Source: Escherichia phage HP3
Sequence record: NC_041919.1
Direction: 5' to 3' (one strand)
Length of the DNA stretch: 64,000 nucleotides
The position numbers were made by a program, and so were the translations under genes. Below are positions 57,738-63,373 of the stretch, in pieces. The notes under the pieces were generated by a model. That model searched no databases and had not been told where the DNA came from. It saw only the letters and a list, made by a program, of their open reading frames with translations. Numbering within the stretch: the first letter of the stretch is position 1; each line of letters opens with the position of its first letter.

Positions 57738-58211
57738 ATGAAATCATATACTCAATTTTTAAATGAAGCGGTGTTAAATGAAGCATCTAGCACCGAAATT
57801 CAAGCTGTTGCAAAAGCTGCCATTGCCGCGGGTAAATATTCCTATAAAGATGCTTCTGATGAATCGCGATTCCAGTTTGCACGCGACATGAAAGCGGAAG
57901 GATTTACGGGAAATGCAGTTAGTATGGCCTGGAAAAGTTTAGTTGCTACTGGCGCTGCTTTTGCAAAGGCTTCGGGTAAACCTGCTCCTAAAGCAGATCC
58001 TAAAGCGGCACAAGAAAAAAATATCGTTAAAGGAATTATCGCTAAATATGAAGCTATCCTTAAAGAGCTTTTAGTAATCAAAACCGAAGGCCAAAAGTTA
58101 GCCCGTGCTTATAGTTTCAAAGATAATCCACATGTTCACTCTCTTGAGTATGTTGAAGACATCCAAAAAATTATTAAAGACCGCATTTGGTCTGCTAAAC
58201 AAATCAAATGA
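57738..58211 (+). CDS. internal-protein-like gene with capsid targeting sequence
   Basis: 157 aa from the ATG at 57738 (RBS tagga); N-terminus MKSYTQFLNEA resembles the IP CTS; the track ORF (57561) is an unsupported N-terminal extension across the terminator and promoter. Confidence 0.6.
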   Translation: MKSYTQFLNEAVLNEASSTEIQAVAKAAIAAGKYSYKDASDESRFQFARDMKAEGFTGNAVSMAWKSLVATGAAFAKASGKPAPKADPKAAQEKNIVKGIIAKYEAILKELLVIKTEGQKLARAYSFKDNPHVHSLEYVEDIQKIIKDRIWSAKQIK

Positions 58212-58336: not shown

Positions 58337-58900
58337 ATGAAAACCTATGCCGAATTTTTAACCGAAGCAGCAAAATTACCATCTGAAGCAGATCTTACTA
58401 AAGTATTCTTCCAATTGGACCCAAAAGACCGCGGCGATTTTCTTAAGTGGAAAGCTAAAGCTATTGAAATGTACAACATCGATAATAGTTCTTTTACAAT
58501 GAGTCAAGAAAATAAATTCAATAAAGCATTTTTCAAAATTTCTAAGAAATTGGCATCTGGCGCTCAGGTTCCTAAATCTGTGTTAGCTACTCCTGAACGC
58601 GCACCTGTTAAAATTTCTAAGAATATGTTCGACACTAAAAAATACGTTAATGCTTTGAATAAAGCTCTTGATGCATTGGATGATGCAAAGAAGGCAGCCC
58701 GCGATCTTCAAGACGTGTACACCGATTTTGACCGCAAAACTAAAGGTTCTATTTCAAATAGCGAACGCAATAGTGTAAGTGTTTATTCTGATAGCCTTGA
58801 TGTTCTTGGCGATGCGTATACTGAAATTAAAAATCGTATTAACACTGCATCTAAGCTAAAAGCTGCTGCAGAAGCTATAATAAGTAAACTAGGTAAATAA
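58337..58900 (+). CDS. internal-protein-like gene with capsid targeting sequence (IPIII-sized)
   Basis: 187 aa; N-terminus MKTYAEFLTEAAK matches the CTS pattern MKTY-EF-xxE; RBS aagga. Confidence 0.6.
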   Translation: MKTYAEFLTEAAKLPSEADLTKVFFQLDPKDRGDFLKWKAKAIEMYNIDNSSFTMSQENKFNKAFFKISKKLASGAQVPKSVLATPERAPVKISKNMFDTKKYVNALNKALDALDDAKKAARDLQDVYTDFDRKTKGSISNSERNSVSVYSDSLDVLGDAYTEIKNRINTASKLKAAAEAIISKLGK

Positions 58901-58908
58901 TTTTAAAT

Positions 58909-58933
58909 CCCTATCTAAATGATAGGGCTTTTT
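58909..58933 (+). terminator. hairpin ccctatctaaatgataggg plus T5
   Basis: inverted repeat followed by cttttt directly after the stop at 58900. Confidence 0.5.
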
Positions 58934-59056: not shown

Positions 59057-59086
59057 GTTTACATCTCTGTTCTTCCATGGTACTAT
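59057..59086 (+). promoter_or_regulatory. sigma70/T4 early-type promoter (GTTTACA, 17 nt, TGGTACTAT)
   Basis: tcacaaaactgtttacat ... ggtactatac, same cassette family as 54310 and 54641. Confidence 0.5.
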
Positions 59087-59129: not shown

Positions 59130-59393
59130 ATGGATAATTACGGCGAACTGTTCAACTTCTTTATGAAATGCGTTTCAGAAGATTTCGGTCGTACAGTGAA
59201 TGATATTAAAGTTATCGGTCCTGATCATCCGATGTTTGAAACTTACGCAGTAATGGGTAATGAAGACGGTCAGTGGTATACTGTAAAAGTTGTGATTAAT
59301 ATGTTCACAGCAGAAGGTTATGTTAAACTGTCTTCTAAAGTTTACCATGATAACGACGAAATCGCAGAAGAATATTTCAATAATATGAAATAA
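59130..59393 (+). CDS. hypothetical protein
   Basis: 87 aa from the ATG at 59130 (RBS ggagaatgaa); the track ORF (59010) extends upstream across the promoter and is unlikely. Confidence 0.5.
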   Translation: MDNYGELFNFFMKCVSEDFGRTVNDIKVIGPDHPMFETYAVMGNEDGQWYTVKVVINMFTAEGYVKLSSKVYHDNDEIAEEYFNNMK

Positions 59394-59494
59394 GTTTACG
59401 CAGGCTCATGATTGAGATATTATGAGCCTATAATTTGACGATAGAGTATTATACTCCTACGGATTTTAAATCTCAATTAACCTAAGGAAATACT

Positions 59495-60088
59495 ATGAAC
59501 ACACTGAAGAAAATTGTTGAGTTTATTCGCACTAAACTTGGTTCTGCTATGGCTAAAAATCTATCTGTCGAAGAACAGTATACTGCTGCAGCAGCAAAAC
59601 TACTTGATAAAATTAAAGATCTAAAAACTGCTTCTGTTAAATCTATTAACGAAGAAAAACGTATTCGTGAACTTGTTATCGAAAAGAATCGACAGGCCGA
59701 ATCAAAAGAGCGTGAAATTCGTAAACTTCTTTCCGAAGGCCAAGATGTAACAATGCATGCTAAACTCGGTTTACTATATCGTCGAACAGCTGAGCAGTTG
59801 ACTACTAAGGCTGACGGTTATGCTGAAATGCGAATTGAAATCGCCAAGAAAGTAGTTGAGTTAGATGATGCTCGTCAAGAACTTGCGGTTAAATTGGAAT
59901 ATATCCGTGAAACTCGTGCAGCGAATGCCCTTGGAATTAGTACTGCTGATGATGTAGTTGAAATTGCAGCACTGACTAAGGTTGATATTGAAGATACTCT
60001 TGCTCGAGTTGAAACCTTTAATGGTAATATTTCTGGGGTTGAAACTACCTCTGCCGATGTTCAGGAATATATTAATTCTCTGAAATAA
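59495..60088 (+). CDS. coiled-coil protein, weakly PspA/IM30-like
   Basis: 197 aa, predominantly charged helical sequence; short resemblance (EDTLARVE) and overall architecture reminiscent of PspA; RBS ctaagga; similarity not verified. Confidence 0.4.
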
Positions 60089-60130
60089 TGATAAGGGGCT
60101 TCGGGCCCCTATTACTTGGAGTAAATAGGA

Positions 60131-60739
60131 ATGAAAATGCAAAGTGATTTCAATTCAATGTTTGAAGAGTTTCAAAGACAGGTTGATGTTCCAGACCAAT
60201 TACTAAATGCTCTTAAACGCATGGCAGAAGGACGTAATTACTATTGGGGGTCTTCATATGAAACTGATGAAAGCCTTTCCGGAAGATTTTCTAGAGGTAA
60301 AAAGTCTTTAATACGTCCTGGAATACTCATTAACAGTATTGAATCAATTCATTCATTGACGTGTGATTTTGATGTTGAATTTACTGATTTCATTTCTCCT
60401 GAATGGACGGTTTGTTATTTAAACGACGATTTTGATTATCTCGGTGTTTATAGTTTAAGTGACGCATGGTTTAAACGTAATTTACAAAAGTCAAATTTAT
60501 TTTATATTGATACTACTGTAAAATTTCAGGGCAAGAAATATTTCTTTACTCTTATAGTTGATTCTGAAACGAAGCATGAAAATAAACGTATTCTTAGTAA
60601 AAAGAATATCTTAACTATTGTTGATGATCTTTTTGATAAATTTGTAGAAAATCCCAATTTTGAAAGTGATTTATTACTAGAAAAATTTGTTAAGGAATGT
60701 AGAGAATATGTCAAAGCCATCACTATACCTTCCAAGTAA
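60131..60739 (+). CDS. hypothetical protein
   Basis: 202-aa ORF; C-terminus EKFVKECREY shares a motif with the three downstream genes. Confidence 0.5.
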   Translation: MKMQSDFNSMFEEFQRQVDVPDQLLNALKRMAEGRNYYWGSSYETDESLSGRFSRGKKSLIRPGILINSIESIHSLTCDFDVEFTDFISPEWTVCYLNDDFDYLGVYSLSDAWFKRNLQKSNLFYIDTTVKFQGKKYFFTLIVDSETKHENKRILSKKNILTIVDDLFDKFVENPNFESDLLLEKFVKECREYVKAITIPSK

Positions 60740-61100
60740 ACCGTTGAAGTATGAATTAAAGCGTCAGATAATTTCTACTGATGTGTTAATAGGTCCTGTT
60801 ATACTCATATCATTTGTAATTCTATTGATTATTGGAGGTGTTTTAGATGTTATGACTGATATTGATTCTGGCGAAATACTTGTGTTAATGCTAATTCTTC
60901 CATTAATAGTTCCACTTTTATTAGTACCCGTAAATTGGGTAGGATACTGGTATCAAGGAAGGCATTATCGTAAACGCGTACGTGATTGGAAAGCACAGTG
61001 TAAAAAGATTAAAAAGGAACATCAGCTTAAACTTGCTGCGTATGAATTTGATGAAATTATGAAATTTGTTAAGGAATCACGATGCAAAAGCCAAAACTAA
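60687..61100 (+). CDS. small membrane protein, family member 1
   Basis: 137 aa; two hydrophobic helices (VLIGPVILISFVILLIIGGV, ILVLMLILPLIVPLLLVPV); C-terminus FVKESRCK. Confidence 0.5.
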   Translation: MLRNVENMSKPSLYLPSKPLKYELKRQIISTDVLIGPVILISFVILLIIGGVLDVMTDIDSGEILVLMLILPLIVPLLLVPVNWVGYWYQGRHYRKRVRDWKAQCKKIKKEHQLKLAAYEFDEIMKFVKESRCKSQN

Positions 61101-61444
61101 ATAAAGTCAAATATTCGTTTTCTGAGTCATTTTTAATTTTTGCTGTGGCGTTGGCTGCAGCTCTTGCAGGTAGTCTTTTTGGATTGTTAATTGACTGTCT
61201 TATTTTAAACATCGACGGCACAGTAAATATAACAGAAGTTTGGAGTGAGCTTTGTTATACTAAAATTATTTCATTGTTTTCATTCTTTGGTATCATTTTA
61301 TATTTTCATTATGATAATTTTAAAATAAATTGGCAAAGAAAAAAAGATTACAAAATACAATTAAAAGAATATAATAGCTACATGTCTTATATTGAAAATG
61401 AGTCAATGAAAGAGTTTGTGAGTGATTGTAGGAAAATTAAATGA
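61082..61444 (+). CDS. small membrane protein, family member 2
   Basis: 120 aa; hydrophobic helices; C-terminus FVSDCRKIK; ATGA overlap with the next gene. Confidence 0.5.
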   Translation: MQKPKLNKVKYSFSESFLIFAVALAAALAGSLFGLLIDCLILNIDGTVNITEVWSELCYTKIISLFSFFGIILYFHYDNFKINWQRKKDYKIQLKEYNSYMSYIENESMKEFVSDCRKIK

Positions 61445-61929
61445 TTTTAAAAACTCGCTGGTATGATTTAGATGATGGGGATGATGGCATTTCAGTTGAT
61501 AGAGTTGACTGGAATGGTTGTTCCGAAGATATGAAAAATTTGTTGATTAGGGAGTTTAGAATGGGATATCAAGCAGCTAAGCCATTTACTGTAACAGATG
61601 ATAAGTTCGTATGTATTCAAAACGGTCGCGCTAAGTTAACGAATGCTGATTGGTTCACAGATAAGAAGGTTCTTCTGTGGTATATCATTAGTCTTCCTAT
61701 ATCATCGTTCGTATTTTACTTTTTTATAAAAAATCCAATGGACAGAATAGGAGATTGGGTTCTTTTAACTATACTTGTTAATATTTTTACAGCAGCAGTA
61801 TTATCAGGAATATGGCGTATGTTCATTGAAATGCCATGGCGTTTACGCAGACAACAAAAGATTTTTGATGAAAAGAAATATGCTCAAAATTTAAATAACT
61901 TTATCACTGAATGCAGGAAATTAAAATGA
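61441..61929 (+). CDS. small membrane protein, family member 3
   Basis: 162 aa; hydrophobic helices; C-terminus FITECRKLK. Confidence 0.5.
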   Translation: MILKTRWYDLDDGDDGISVDRVDWNGCSEDMKNLLIREFRMGYQAAKPFTVTDDKFVCIQNGRAKLTNADWFTDKKVLLWYIISLPISSFVFYFFIKNPMDRIGDWVLLTILVNIFTAAVLSGIWRMFIEMPWRLRRQQKIFDEKKYAQNLNNFITECRKLK

Positions 61930-62366: not shown

Positions 62367-62897
<531 letters not shown>

Positions 62898-62901
62898 AGT
62901 T

Positions 62902-62931
62902 GTTTACTTTCTCCTAGAATTGTGATAGTAT
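62902..62931 (+). promoter_or_regulatory. sigma70/T4 early-type promoter upstream of denV
   Basis: aagttgtttac, 18 nt, tagtat, with inverted repeat tgtga / tcaca flanking the -10. Confidence 0.45.
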
Positions 62932-62956
62932 ATTCACAGTTACTTGGAGGGATAAA

Positions 62957-63373
62957 ATGACTCGTATTAATTTGACTTTAGTATCTGAACTTGCTGATCA
63001 ACATTTAATCGCAGAATACCGTGAATTGCCGCGTGTTTTTGGTATAGTTCGTAAGCATGTGGCAAACGGTAAGCGCGTTAAAGATTTTAAAATATCTTCT
63101 AAATTTATTTTAGGTTCTGGTCATGTTACTTTCTTTTACGATAAGTTAGAATTTTTGCGAAAGCGTCAATCGGACATTATAACGGAATGCTTAAAACGCG
63201 GGTTCAGTATAAAAGATACTGAAGTTCCTGACATCAGCGATATTCCAGTAGAATGGAAAAATGATTATAATCCATGCAAATCAGCTATTAAGTTGAGTCA
63301 ACAACGACTCGATGAAAAAATTTTAATGAAGCCACACTGGTATAAGTATTACGGCAAAAATATTTACATTTAA
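62957..63373 (+). CDS. denV: endonuclease V (pyrimidine dimer DNA glycosylase)
   Basis: 138 aa, same as T4 endo V; N-terminus [29 protein letters not shown] matches recollection. Confidence 0.92.

What the first reader, a model, noticed from the sequence alone, without database searches (positions are those of the whole stretch)
59495..60088. Phage-encoded coiled-coil protein with weak PspA/IM30-like character
The 197-aa product is almost entirely charged helix and has its own terminator hairpin. Overall architecture and a short EDTLARVE segment are reminiscent of the PspA/IM30/Vipp1 membrane-stress family, but this is an impression, not a verified match. A phage PspA-like protein next to membrane-protein genes and the lysis gene would be unusual.
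Basis: inference. Interest (0 to 1): 0.4.

Follow-up and report, generated by a model that had tools for sequence, protein, structure and literature searches.

The report
T4 e.6: a phage-encoded PspA homolog
The T4 gene e.6, conserved in over a thousand phage genomes and listed as function unknown, is a very diverged relative of the bacterial membrane-repair protein PspA/Vipp1 (ESCRT-III superfamily), so these phages probably bring their own membrane-protecting protein into the cells they infect.

The parts
59495..60088 (+). e.6 coding sequence (197 aa plus stop), a divergent PspA/IM30-family (ESCRT-III superfamily) protein
   Evidence: ORF. 98% identical to T4 e.6. PHROG 1203, unknown function. 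Homology chain to PspA/IM30.
59484..59488 (+). Shine-Dalgarno AAGGA, 6 nt upstream of the ATG
   Evidence: Read directly from the sequence.
59498..59560 (+). Helix alpha0 (residues 2-22): basic amphipathic N-terminal helix, the presumed membrane anchor
   Evidence: Helical in both AlphaFold models, at low pLDDT of 56-61. Hydrophobic moment 0.45, against 0.42 for PspA and 0.57 for Vipp1, and 9th of 179 windows in the protein. Same span as Vipp1 alpha0, aa 1-22 (PMC8281802).
59567..59734 (+). Helix alpha1 (residues 25-80), first arm of the hairpin
   Evidence: AlphaFold pLDDT 76-97. Aligns without gaps to PspA residues 1-80.
59750..59929 (+). Helices alpha2/alpha3 (residues 86-145), second arm of the hairpin, starting with the most conserved family motif [10 protein letters not shown]
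   Evidence: AlphaFold pLDDT 82-96. Invariant K90, L91, L94 and R96. A89/L93/R96 fall on the conserved PspA A87/L91/K94. The published Vipp1/PspA hairpin is aa 24-142.
59945..60016 (+). Helix alpha4 region (residues 151-174, kinked at 161-165).
   Evidence: pLDDT 60-82. Aligned to PspA alpha4 'FERRIDQMEAEAE'.
60050..60082 (+). Helix alpha5 (residues 186-196) with the conserved C-terminal DVxxYLxSLK
   Evidence: V189/L193/L196 align with the conserved PspA/Vipp1 V206/L210/L213 of 'ISEQLAQLKAKM' / 'VEDELAALKA'.
60094..60110 (+). GC-rich UUCG-loop hairpin just after the stop codon: a probable terminator or RNA-stabilising element
   Evidence: Predicted as a terminator in phage fPS-65 at the equivalent position. 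The T-tail on the + strand is marginal.
59058..59086 (+). Predicted early promoter (TTTACA-17-TACTAT with an upstream TG) ahead of e.8 and e.6
   Evidence: Consensus scan. Coincides with the 'predicted early promoter' annotated in fPS-65. T4 e.6 RNA is classed as early (PMC9697503 supplement).
59395..59423 (+). Second promoter-like site (TTTACG-17-TATTAT) directly upstream of e.6, overlapping a hairpin
   Evidence: Consensus scan only. The number of such sites in the region equals the shuffle expectation, so this is weak evidence.
59130..59393 (+). e.8 (87 aa), the gene directly upstream and probably co-transcribed. T4's e.7 is absent in this phage.
   Evidence: 99% identical to T4 e.8 and no similarity to e.7.

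Best explanation
e.6 is a compact (197 aa), highly diverged, phage-encoded member of the PspA/IM30/Vipp1 branch of the ESCRT-III superfamily.

Shown: the homology and the predicted helix layout alpha0, alpha1-alpha2/3 hairpin, alpha4, alpha5. Also shown: expression early in T4 infection, and conservation as a stand-alone single-copy gene in Straboviridae and Ackermannviridae.

Inferred: like PspA, LiaH and Vipp1, it binds the cytoplasmic face of the inner membrane through its basic amphipathic helix alpha0. It polymerises through side-by-side hairpin packing and a contact between alpha5 and a neighbour's hairpin tip. In doing so it seals or stabilises stressed membrane and keeps the proton-motive force up. 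The phage would need its own copy because T4-type phages shut off host transcription, so the sigma54-dependent host psp operon cannot be induced. Meanwhile the infected membrane is stressed by DNA injection and superinfection, by phage membrane proteins, and later by holin, which fires prematurely if the membrane potential drops. Membrane-attacking abortive-infection effectors may add to that stress.
For: Identity and expression:
- 98% identical to T4 e.6.
- T4 e.6 is classed early RNA / middle protein (PMC9697503 supplementary files 4 and 6).
- A predicted early promoter lies upstream.

Homology chain:
- The T4-clade profile A1 finds P0065 and P0066 full length at E 1.2e-21 and 3.2e-20 among 1.84 billion representatives.
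- P0066 and P0065 score 39.0 and 35.1 bits on PF04012 (cut-off 33.9), residues 6-146 on HMM positions 2-143. P0067 and P0068 score 22 bits.
- The cultured Kuttervirus GEC_vB_GOT gp042c scores 33.7 bits, E 3.6e-8, and matches A1 by HHalign at 98.3%, E 2e-14.
- tblastn links P0066 to annotated e.6 genes: E 4e-19 and 2e-7.

Direct profile tests:
- The A2 profile against PDB sequences gives Vipp1 E 9.9e-5, and 8 of the top 9 hits are Vipp1/PspA, co-linear from residue 1.
- HHalign of A2 against a PspA/Vipp1 alignment: 89.8%, E 1.8e-6, score 46.6, 196 columns.
- Without the Pfam-positive clade it still gives 68.5% and score 38.0.
- Decoys: reversed 20-21; 40 block shuffles 18.9 +/- 3.1, maximum 26.1.

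Structure:
- AlphaFold pLDDT 81.6 with helices 2-22, 25-80, 86-145, 151-174 and 186-196. Published Vipp1 values are alpha0 aa 1-22 and hairpin aa 24-142.
- Foldseek's top nine PDB hits are all Vipp1, then archaeal CdvB2.
- In BFVD a 'PspA/IM30 family protein' of Acinetobacter phage ME3 appears at probability 0.96.

Residue level:
- alpha0 is amphipathic and basic.
- Conserved positions coincide best in register 0 (43 of 67), including the hairpin-tip and C-terminal motifs.

A conditional accessory role fits 'Not Fit' in CRISPRi-ART.
Against: - The window protein itself, and the close T4-like clade alone, give no significant PspA signal. Pfam, NCBIfam and PDB phmmer return nothing. A1 against PDB gives E 2-5. 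A1 against PspA by HHalign gives 4% probability, no better than the reversed decoy. The assignment therefore rests on transitivity through diverged relatives.
- Long coiled coils are prone to spurious profile matches. Heptad-shifted registers still give up to 51% coincidence of conserved positions, against 64% in register 0.
- Foldseek E-values are borderline (1.5e-3 and weaker), and alpha0 is modelled with low confidence.
- The PspA/Vipp1-specific N-terminal part of alpha5 (inter-ring Interface 3) appears to be missing, so assemblies may differ.
- There is no conserved PspB/C/F-like partner and no conserved neighbour.
- Knock-down has no phenotype on a laboratory host.
- Nothing here tests membrane binding, oligomerisation or any effect on membrane potential.
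Confidence: 0.55

Rival explanations
1. e.6 is a PspA/ESCRT-III homolog, but it is used for active membrane remodelling that serves the phage rather than for protection. Examples would be shaping or proliferating inner membrane for membrane-bound prohead or replication sites, or assisting envelope disruption at lysis.
For: It rests on the same homology evidence. PspA and Vipp1 also remodel, fuse and tubulate membranes (abstracts listed). The apparent loss of the PspA-specific alpha5N segment makes e.6 more ESCRT-III-like. The gene lies in a block with three small membrane proteins and 2.3 kb upstream of lysozyme e.
Against: Expression is early/middle, not late with the morphogenesis and lysis genes. 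Knock-down gives no fitness defect, whereas assembly and lysis functions are usually needed. The Kuttervirus homolog sits among replication genes with unrelated neighbours, so the proximity to lysis genes is not conserved. The PHROG spanin hit is noise (E 0.24).
Confidence: 0.15
2. e.6 is a PspA mimic that acts on host proteins rather than on lipid. It could titrate PspF or PspBC to manipulate the host Psp response. Alternatively it could act as a decoy for a defence system that senses or uses PspA: a CBASS cyclase has been reported to be conjugated in a way linked to PspA and phage infection (work cited in PMC7619361).
For: Homology to PspA, which in enterobacteria also binds and inhibits PspF (established knowledge). 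Early expression. It is dispensable on a defence-poor laboratory strain. Phage infection is listed among PspA triggers, with a CBASS link, in the 2025 review.
Against: Sequence identity to host PspA is only about 12%, which is too low for straightforward mimicry of a binding surface. T4 shuts off host transcription, so regulating PspF would gain little (established knowledge). The family occurs in phages of many hosts (Aeromonas, Klebsiella, Salmonella, Serratia, Erwinia), and what is conserved is the architecture, not a host-specific surface.
Confidence: 0.1
3. e.6 is an unrelated phage coiled-coil protein (a scaffold, adaptor or virion-associated protein, as the database labels 'host specificity protein' and 'tail completion protein' suggest). 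On this reading the resemblance to PspA is convergent or an artefact of coiled-coil composition.
Against: The matches are full length and co-linear from residue 1, with helix breaks at the same positions, and they survive reversed and block-shuffled decoys by more than 7 sd. Two members pass a curated Pfam cut-off. Vipp1 is the top hit among 177,635 PDB sequences and among 350,542 chains by Foldseek. Early/middle expression is untypical for virion proteins. The structural names come with no supporting note or evidence in the records seen.
Confidence: 0.12

Closest known systems
PspA (phage shock protein A, E. coli; Pfam PF04012 PspA_IM30; PDB 4WHE)
   Same: - Similar size: 197 aa against 222 aa.
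- The N-terminal amphipathic helix alpha0 ends at residue 22, followed by a break at 23-24.
- The alpha1-alpha2/3 hairpin spans about residues 25-145 with its tip at 81-85.
- The hairpin-tip motif A-[KR]-x-x-L-x-x-[KR] is shared.
- alpha4 and a C-terminal alpha5 ending in LxxLK are shared.
- The two align end to end in a profile-profile comparison.
   Different: - Identity is about 12%.
- The T4 protein does not reach the Pfam threshold.
- It lacks the conserved 'AEDP' junction and the W71 region.
- It appears to lack the N-terminal half of alpha5.
- It is encoded by a virulent phage, without pspBC/pspF partners, and is transcribed from a phage early promoter rather than a sigma54 stress promoter.
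Vipp1/IM30 (cyanobacteria and chloroplasts; PDB 7O3W, 6ZVR, 8QFV)
   Same: It is the best hit both by sequence profile (E 9.9e-5) and by Foldseek (E 1.5e-3, probability 1.0, top nine hits). The alpha0 and hairpin boundaries are the same.
   Different: e.6 has no C-terminal extension or alpha6 (Vipp1 aa 220-258), has no thylakoid context, and is shorter in the alpha4-alpha5 region.
ESCRT-III proper (CdvB/CdvB2, Snf7/CHMP4, CHMP1B)
   Different: There is no MIM motif or Vps4 partner and no detectable sequence similarity. The fold matches are no better than those to BAR domains.
Phage proteins already labelled PspA/IM30 (Acinetobacter phage vB_AbaM_ME3 A0A172Q0S7; two unverified faecal 'Bacteriophage sp.' contigs, MT835668 and MT839532)
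   Same: These are virus-borne members of the same family, and ME3 shows a similar predicted fold.
   Different: They are canonical PspA sequences recognisable by BLAST or Pfam (28-31% identity to E. coli PspA; 222-229 aa), and they are rare: 2 of 50,697 records by tblastn. The e.6 family is a separate, much more diverged clade present in 1,105 records and is not annotated as PspA in any record seen here.

Membership tests
PspA/IM30 family (Pfam PF04012) | Sequence match to the family HMM above the curated gathering score (33.9 bits) | tested here: not met
   The window protein has no PF04012 hit even at E <= 10, and none of the 33 close relatives has one among the top families. Diverged members of the same phage family do pass: P0066 39.0 bits and P0065 35.1 bits. 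Kuttervirus gp042c scores 33.7, and P0067 and P0068 score 22. Membership of the window protein is therefore by transitive homology, not by the threshold.
PspA/IM30 family (Pfam PF04012) | Homology demonstrable by profile methods, co-linear over the alpha0 to alpha5 core | tested here: met
   A2 against PDB sequences: Vipp1 E 9.9e-5, residues 1-146 on 1-147. HHalign of A2 against PspA/Vipp1: 89.8%, E 1.8e-6, 196 columns, against decoy scores of about 19-21. A1 against Kuttervirus gp042c: 98.3%. Caveat: A1 alone against PspA is not significant.
PspA/IM30 family (Pfam PF04012) | N-terminal amphipathic membrane-binding helix alpha0 (about aa 1-22) | tested here: met
   Predicted helix 2-22. Hydrophobic moment 0.45 with K5, K6, R12 and K14 on the polar face, comparable to PspA (0.42) and Vipp1 (0.57). 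Published alpha0 is aa 1-22. Actual membrane binding was not tested.
PspA/IM30 family (Pfam PF04012) | Long alpha1-alpha2/3 coiled-coil hairpin (aa 24-142 in PspA/Vipp1) | tested here: met
PspA/IM30 family (Pfam PF04012) | Helix alpha5 that binds a neighbour's hairpin tip (Interface 1), plus the PspA/Vipp1-specific alpha5 N-terminal extension (Interface 3) | tested here: inconclusive
   A C-terminal helix 186-196 with a conserved V/L/L triad aligns to the C-terminal part of PspA/Vipp1 alpha5. The HHalign alignment has a gap at PspA 'FAEL', and the model is disordered at 175-185, which suggests the N-terminal extension is absent.
PspA/IM30 family (Pfam PF04012) | Self-assembly into large rings, rods or carpets, and stabilisation of membranes against proton leak | not testable with these tools
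   This needs purified protein (EM, liposome and proton-leak assays) or multimer modelling, which is not available here.
Enterobacterial Psp system (pspF-pspABCDE) | Operon partners PspB/PspC and regulation through PspF/sigma54 | tested here: not met
   The neighbours e.8, e.5, e.4, e.3 and e.2 have no significant Pfam match. The Kuttervirus homolog has unrelated neighbours. A phage early-type promoter is predicted. e.6 is a stand-alone effector, not a Psp system.
ESCRT-III (Snf7 family, PF03357) | Snf7-type sequence signature and a C-terminal MIM/Vps4-binding element | tested here: not met
   No Snf7 Pfam hit. The protein ends at alpha5. Only a generic fold resemblance is seen. The relation is at superfamily level, through PspA, only.

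The most novel reading that the evidence does not exclude
The e.6 family is a phage-encoded ESCRT-III-like membrane-repair system that works as a counter-defence and lysis-timing guard. By polymerising on damaged inner membrane it would neutralise membrane-depolarising abortive-infection effectors and prevent premature holin triggering. That would be a new class of anti-defence mechanism (repairing the damage rather than inhibiting the sensor), carried by more than 1,100 T4-like and Vi1-like phages.
Probability: 0.2. Interest if true: 0.8.

Novelty: new variant of a known kind. Interest (0 to 1): 0.6.

Why it matters
T4 is among the best-studied phages, yet many of its genes, e.6 among them, still have no known function. 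Placing e.6 in the PspA/Vipp1/ESCRT-III superfamily gives this conserved gene a concrete, testable biochemical role. The gene is expressed and is present in 1,105 of 50,697 phage records.

The assignment also extends the superfamily to a large, previously unrecognised viral clade. The 2024 PSP evolutionary survey and the 2025 ESCRT-III review do not discuss virus-encoded members in their text. No paper found here links T4 to PspA homologs.

It raises a general idea: virulent phages that silence host stress responses may carry their own membrane-maintenance factor. That bears on lysis timing, lysis inhibition, superinfection and resistance to membrane-targeting defence systems. The 197-aa protein may also be a minimal model for ESCRT-III-type assembly.

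Tried and rejected
- **Single-sequence searches found nothing useful.** Pfam, NCBIfam and PDB phmmer gave only coiled-coil noise; PHROGs returned only an unknown-function family.
- **Pfam over the 33 close relatives** gave only scattered coiled-coil families.
- **The afdb50 Foldseek library** was not available.
- **Building a diverse PspA alignment.** The search for homologous proteins with E. coli PspA and the genome-contig scan both returned only Enterobacterales sequences (78-100% identical). Diversity came instead from Vipp1 (text), two plasmid PspA genes and two faecal phage contigs. The resulting PspA profile is therefore thin (13 sequences, Neff about 3).
- **Circular-rotation decoys** were rejected as a control, because local alignment still finds the intact segment. 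Reversed and block-shuffled decoys were used instead.
- **Re-searching the 5.8-billion-protein database with profile A2** returned only family members, because of the candidate cap.
- **A conserved partner gene** was looked for and not found: e.5 is unrelated to the gene after the Kuttervirus homolog.
- **The EDTLARVE = PspA DDTLARMK idea** was rejected, since the two segments lie in different helices of the alignment.
- **The database names** 'host specificity protein' and 'tail completion protein' were rejected as unsupported.
- **The weak hits** to an Rz-like spanin PHROG (E 0.24) and to NCBIfam 'sll1863 stress response' (E 0.046) were treated as noise.
- **Literature searches** for e.6 or for phage-encoded PspA found nothing beyond omics tables.
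- **One script failed** on a file-name assumption.

Full report
**1. What is there**

The window is a Tequatrovirus genome segment. The 1.8 kb around the finding is 100% identical to Escherichia phages ES19, ES21, a51 and HP3.1. The neighbouring genes are T4 lysozyme e, nudE and denV.

The ORF at 59495-60088 (+, ATG, 197 aa) has an AAGGA ribosome-binding site 6 nt upstream. It is 98% identical (194/197) to T4 gene e.6, NP_049742, 'conserved hypothetical protein'.

By tblastn it is a single-copy gene in 1,105 of 50,697 phage records, nearly always full length. An exhaustive profile search of 1.84 billion representative proteins finds only 45 clusters, essentially all 195-209 aa. So it is a real, conserved, phage-restricted gene.

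In T4 its RNA is classed early and its protein middle, meaning the protein is detected (PMC9697503 supplementary files 4 and 6). CRISPRi-ART lists its function as UNKNOWN and its knock-down as 'Not Fit', i.e. no fitness defect on the laboratory host (PMC11879866 supplementary file 15).

**2.

- Helical and charged: yes. 84% of residues are helical in two AlphaFold models, and 34% are D/E/K/R.
- Hairpin after the stop codon: present at 60094-60110, with a UUCG-type loop, and predicted as a terminator in the near-identical phage fPS-65. The + strand T-run is marginal and the folding z-score is unremarkable.
- Transcription unit: together with a predicted early promoter at 59058-59086, e.8 and e.6 look like a short early unit. 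T4's e.7 is missing in this phage.
- Membrane-protein neighbours: e.4, e.3 and e.2 each have two TM-like segments. They lie beyond e.5, and lysozyme e is 2.3 kb away.

**3. Is it PspA-like?**

On its own the protein matches nothing: Pfam, NCBIfam and PDB sequences give only sub-threshold coiled-coil noise. The 33 close relatives behave the same way. The close-clade profile (A1) gives non-significant matches to Vipp1 (E 2-5), but they are strikingly co-linear, residues 4-142 on 4-144. That prompted a proper test.

*(a) Widening the family.* The exhaustive search with A1 added diverged full-length relatives, giving alignment A2 (45 sequences, down to 18% identity).
- Several of these have N-termini that resemble PspA by eye: 'MGILSRIKEFL...' and '...EANVNSLVQK' against PspA '[21 protein letters not shown]'.
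- Two of them, P0066 and P0065, pass Pfam's curated threshold for PspA_IM30 (39.0 and 35.1 bits against 33.9), and two more score 22 bits.
- P0065 and P0066 match the T4-clade profile at E 1e-21 and 3e-20 over the full length.
- They come from Ackermannviridae and related 157-160 kb phages.
- The cultured Kuttervirus GEC_vB_GOT gp042c scores 33.7 bits (E 3.6e-8). It aligns to the T4-clade profile with HHalign probability 98.3%, E 2e-14, over 187 columns.
- tblastn also links P0066 directly to annotated e.6 genes.

*(b) Direct profile tests.*
- The A2 profile puts Vipp1 first among 177,635 PDB sequences (E 9.9e-5). Eight of the top nine hits are Vipp1/PspA, aligned 1-146 on 1-147.
- For an HHpred-style test I built a PspA/Vipp1 alignment. 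It holds E. coli PspA (checked against 4WHE and E. coli entries), seven Enterobacterales sequences, Synechocystis Vipp1, two plasmid PspA/IM30 genes and two phage-contig PspAs.
- HHalign of A2 against it gives 89.8% probability, E 1.8e-6, score 46.6 and 196 aligned columns (4-205 on 1-218).
- After removing the Pfam-positive clade it still gives 68.5% and score 38.0.
- Reversed decoys score 20-21. Forty block-shuffled decoys score 18.9 +/- 3.1, maximum 26.1.
- The T4 clade alone (A1) is not above decoy level (score 23.7), so the signal needs the family's full diversity.

*(c) Structure.*
- With the deeper alignment AlphaFold gives pLDDT 81.6, with 88-97 over residues 31-130 of the hairpin. The helices are 2-22, 25-80, 86-145, 151-160/166-174 and 186-196.
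- The published Vipp1 layout is alpha0 at aa 1-22, hairpin at aa 24-142, an elbow, alpha4, and then alpha5, which is essential for polymerisation (PMC8281802).
- Foldseek against 350,542 PDB chains returns Vipp1 as hits 1-9 (E 1.5e-3 to 5e-2, probability 0.99-1.0), then archaeal ESCRT-III CdvB2.
- Against viral models the hits are the e.6 family itself, then weakly a 'PspA/IM30 family protein' of Acinetobacter phage ME3.

*(d) Residue level.*
- alpha0 is amphipathic and basic: moment 0.45 against 0.42 for PspA and 0.57 for Vipp1.
- The most conserved e.6 motif, [10 protein letters not shown] at the start of alpha2, falls on the conserved PspA LARaALxxK. The C-terminal DVxxYLxSLK falls on PspA/Vipp1 'ISEQLAQLKAKM' / 'VEDELAALKA'.
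- Conserved positions coincide best in register 0: 43 of 67, against 10-32 for shifted registers.
It is not homologous to PspA 'DDTLARMK' in alpha2/3.

I conclude, with about 85% confidence, that e.6 is a diverged PspA/IM30-family (ESCRT-III superfamily) protein. The conclusion rests on transitive and profile-profile evidence, with structure compatible but not decisive.

**4. How it most likely works (inference)**

PspA, LiaH and Vipp1 bind stressed membranes through alpha0. They polymerise by hairpin packing plus an alpha5-to-hairpin-tip contact, and they limit proton leak (PMC8281802; abstracts; the rest is established knowledge of the family).

e.6 keeps alpha0, the hairpin, alpha4 and the C-terminal part of alpha5. 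It seems to lack the PspA/Vipp1-specific N-terminal part of alpha5, which makes inter-ring contacts, so its assemblies may differ.

It is a stand-alone gene. No PspB, PspC or PspF-like neighbour is found, and the neighbours differ between phage families.

T4-type phages shut off host transcription (established knowledge), so the host cannot induce psp. An early-made phage PspA would keep the inner membrane tight and energised through injection or superinfection damage, insertion of phage membrane proteins, and holin accumulation. It might also counter membrane-attacking abortive-infection effectors. A conditional role of this kind fits the lack of a knock-down phenotype on a laboratory strain. 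I put this mechanism at roughly 50%.

The rivals are membrane remodelling for phage purposes, action on host Psp or defence proteins, and non-homologous coiled coil.

**5. Comparison with what is known, and novelty**

Canonical PspA genes are almost absent from phage records: 2 unverified faecal contigs of 50,697 by tblastn. One jumbo Acinetobacter phage protein is labelled PspA/IM30 in UniProt.

In the records and supplementary tables examined here the e.6 family is annotated 'hypothetical', PHROG 1203 'unknown function', or misleadingly 'host specificity protein'.

The literature available here contains no link between T4 and a PspA homolog. The PSP evolutionary survey and the ESCRT-III review do not discuss viral members in their text.

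I therefore rate it a new, diverged, phage-borne variant of a known family. It is interesting because it concerns T4 and more than 1,100 genomes and is directly testable, but it is not categorically new.

**6. Limits**

- The PspA comparison profile is thin.
- No multimer modelling, no afdb50 search and no HHpred database search were possible.
- Function is entirely inferred.

Noticed in passing
window 60131-61929 (e.5, e.4, e.3, e.2): The four consecutive genes all end in a shared C-terminal motif F[VI]x[ED][CS]R[KCE]: KFVKECREY, KFVKESRCK, EFVSDCRKIK and NFITECRKLK. e.4, e.3 and e.2 each have two TM-like segments, while e.5 has none. This looks like a paralogous cluster with a common cytoplasmic tail. 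None has a Pfam match.
   Followed up: partly
window 61441-61929: The e.2 ORF here is 162 aa, whereas T4's annotated e.2 is 309 nt (102 aa). Either the N-terminal part differs between the phages or the T4 start is annotated further downstream.
   Followed up: no
window 57738-58211 and 58337-58900: Two adjacent ORFs begin alike (MKSYTQFLNEA... and MKTYAEFLTEAAKL...) and look like paralogs. The T4 reference has no genes of this size between the tRNA/RNA region and e.8. Each is followed by a hairpin (for example 58909-58927, terminator-like).
   Followed up: no
window 59394-59494, compared with T4 69906-70359: T4's e.7 (111 aa) is absent in this phage. e.8 (99% identical to T4 e.8) directly precedes e.6, separated by a hairpin (GGCTCAT...ATGAGCC, about 59406-59431) that overlaps a promoter-like site.
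   Followed up: yes
window 62403-63373: Lysozyme e is followed directly by denV. The internal-protein genes ipIII and ipII, which lie between them in T4, are missing here.
   Followed up: no
L085 (MT835668, 3401-4069) and L086 (MT839532, 2201-2878): Two 'UNVERIFIED Bacteriophage sp.' contigs from human faeces encode canonical PspA proteins (31% and 28% identical to E. coli PspA, about 225 aa). They are the only BLAST-detectable PspA genes among 50,697 phage records. Whether the contigs are truly viral was not checked.
   Followed up: no
P0083 and BFVD hit A0A5Q2F7S5: One diverged family member is deposited as 'hypothetical protein [Proteus mirabilis]' on a 50.5 kb contig, possibly a prophage or a phage contig in a bacterial assembly. 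Another is named 'Tail completion protein' in Klebsiella phage UPM 2146. Many e.6 orthologs carry the label 'host specificity protein'. No supporting note or evidence accompanied any of these names in the outputs seen.
   Followed up: no
L002 6001-7219 (Salmonella phage GEC_vB_GOT): In the Kuttervirus the e.6 homolog (gp042c) lies among replication genes, between primase/helicase and DNA ligase. Its annotated end overlaps the next ORF (gp041c) by about 110 nt, so one of the two start or stop annotations may be wrong.
   Followed up: no
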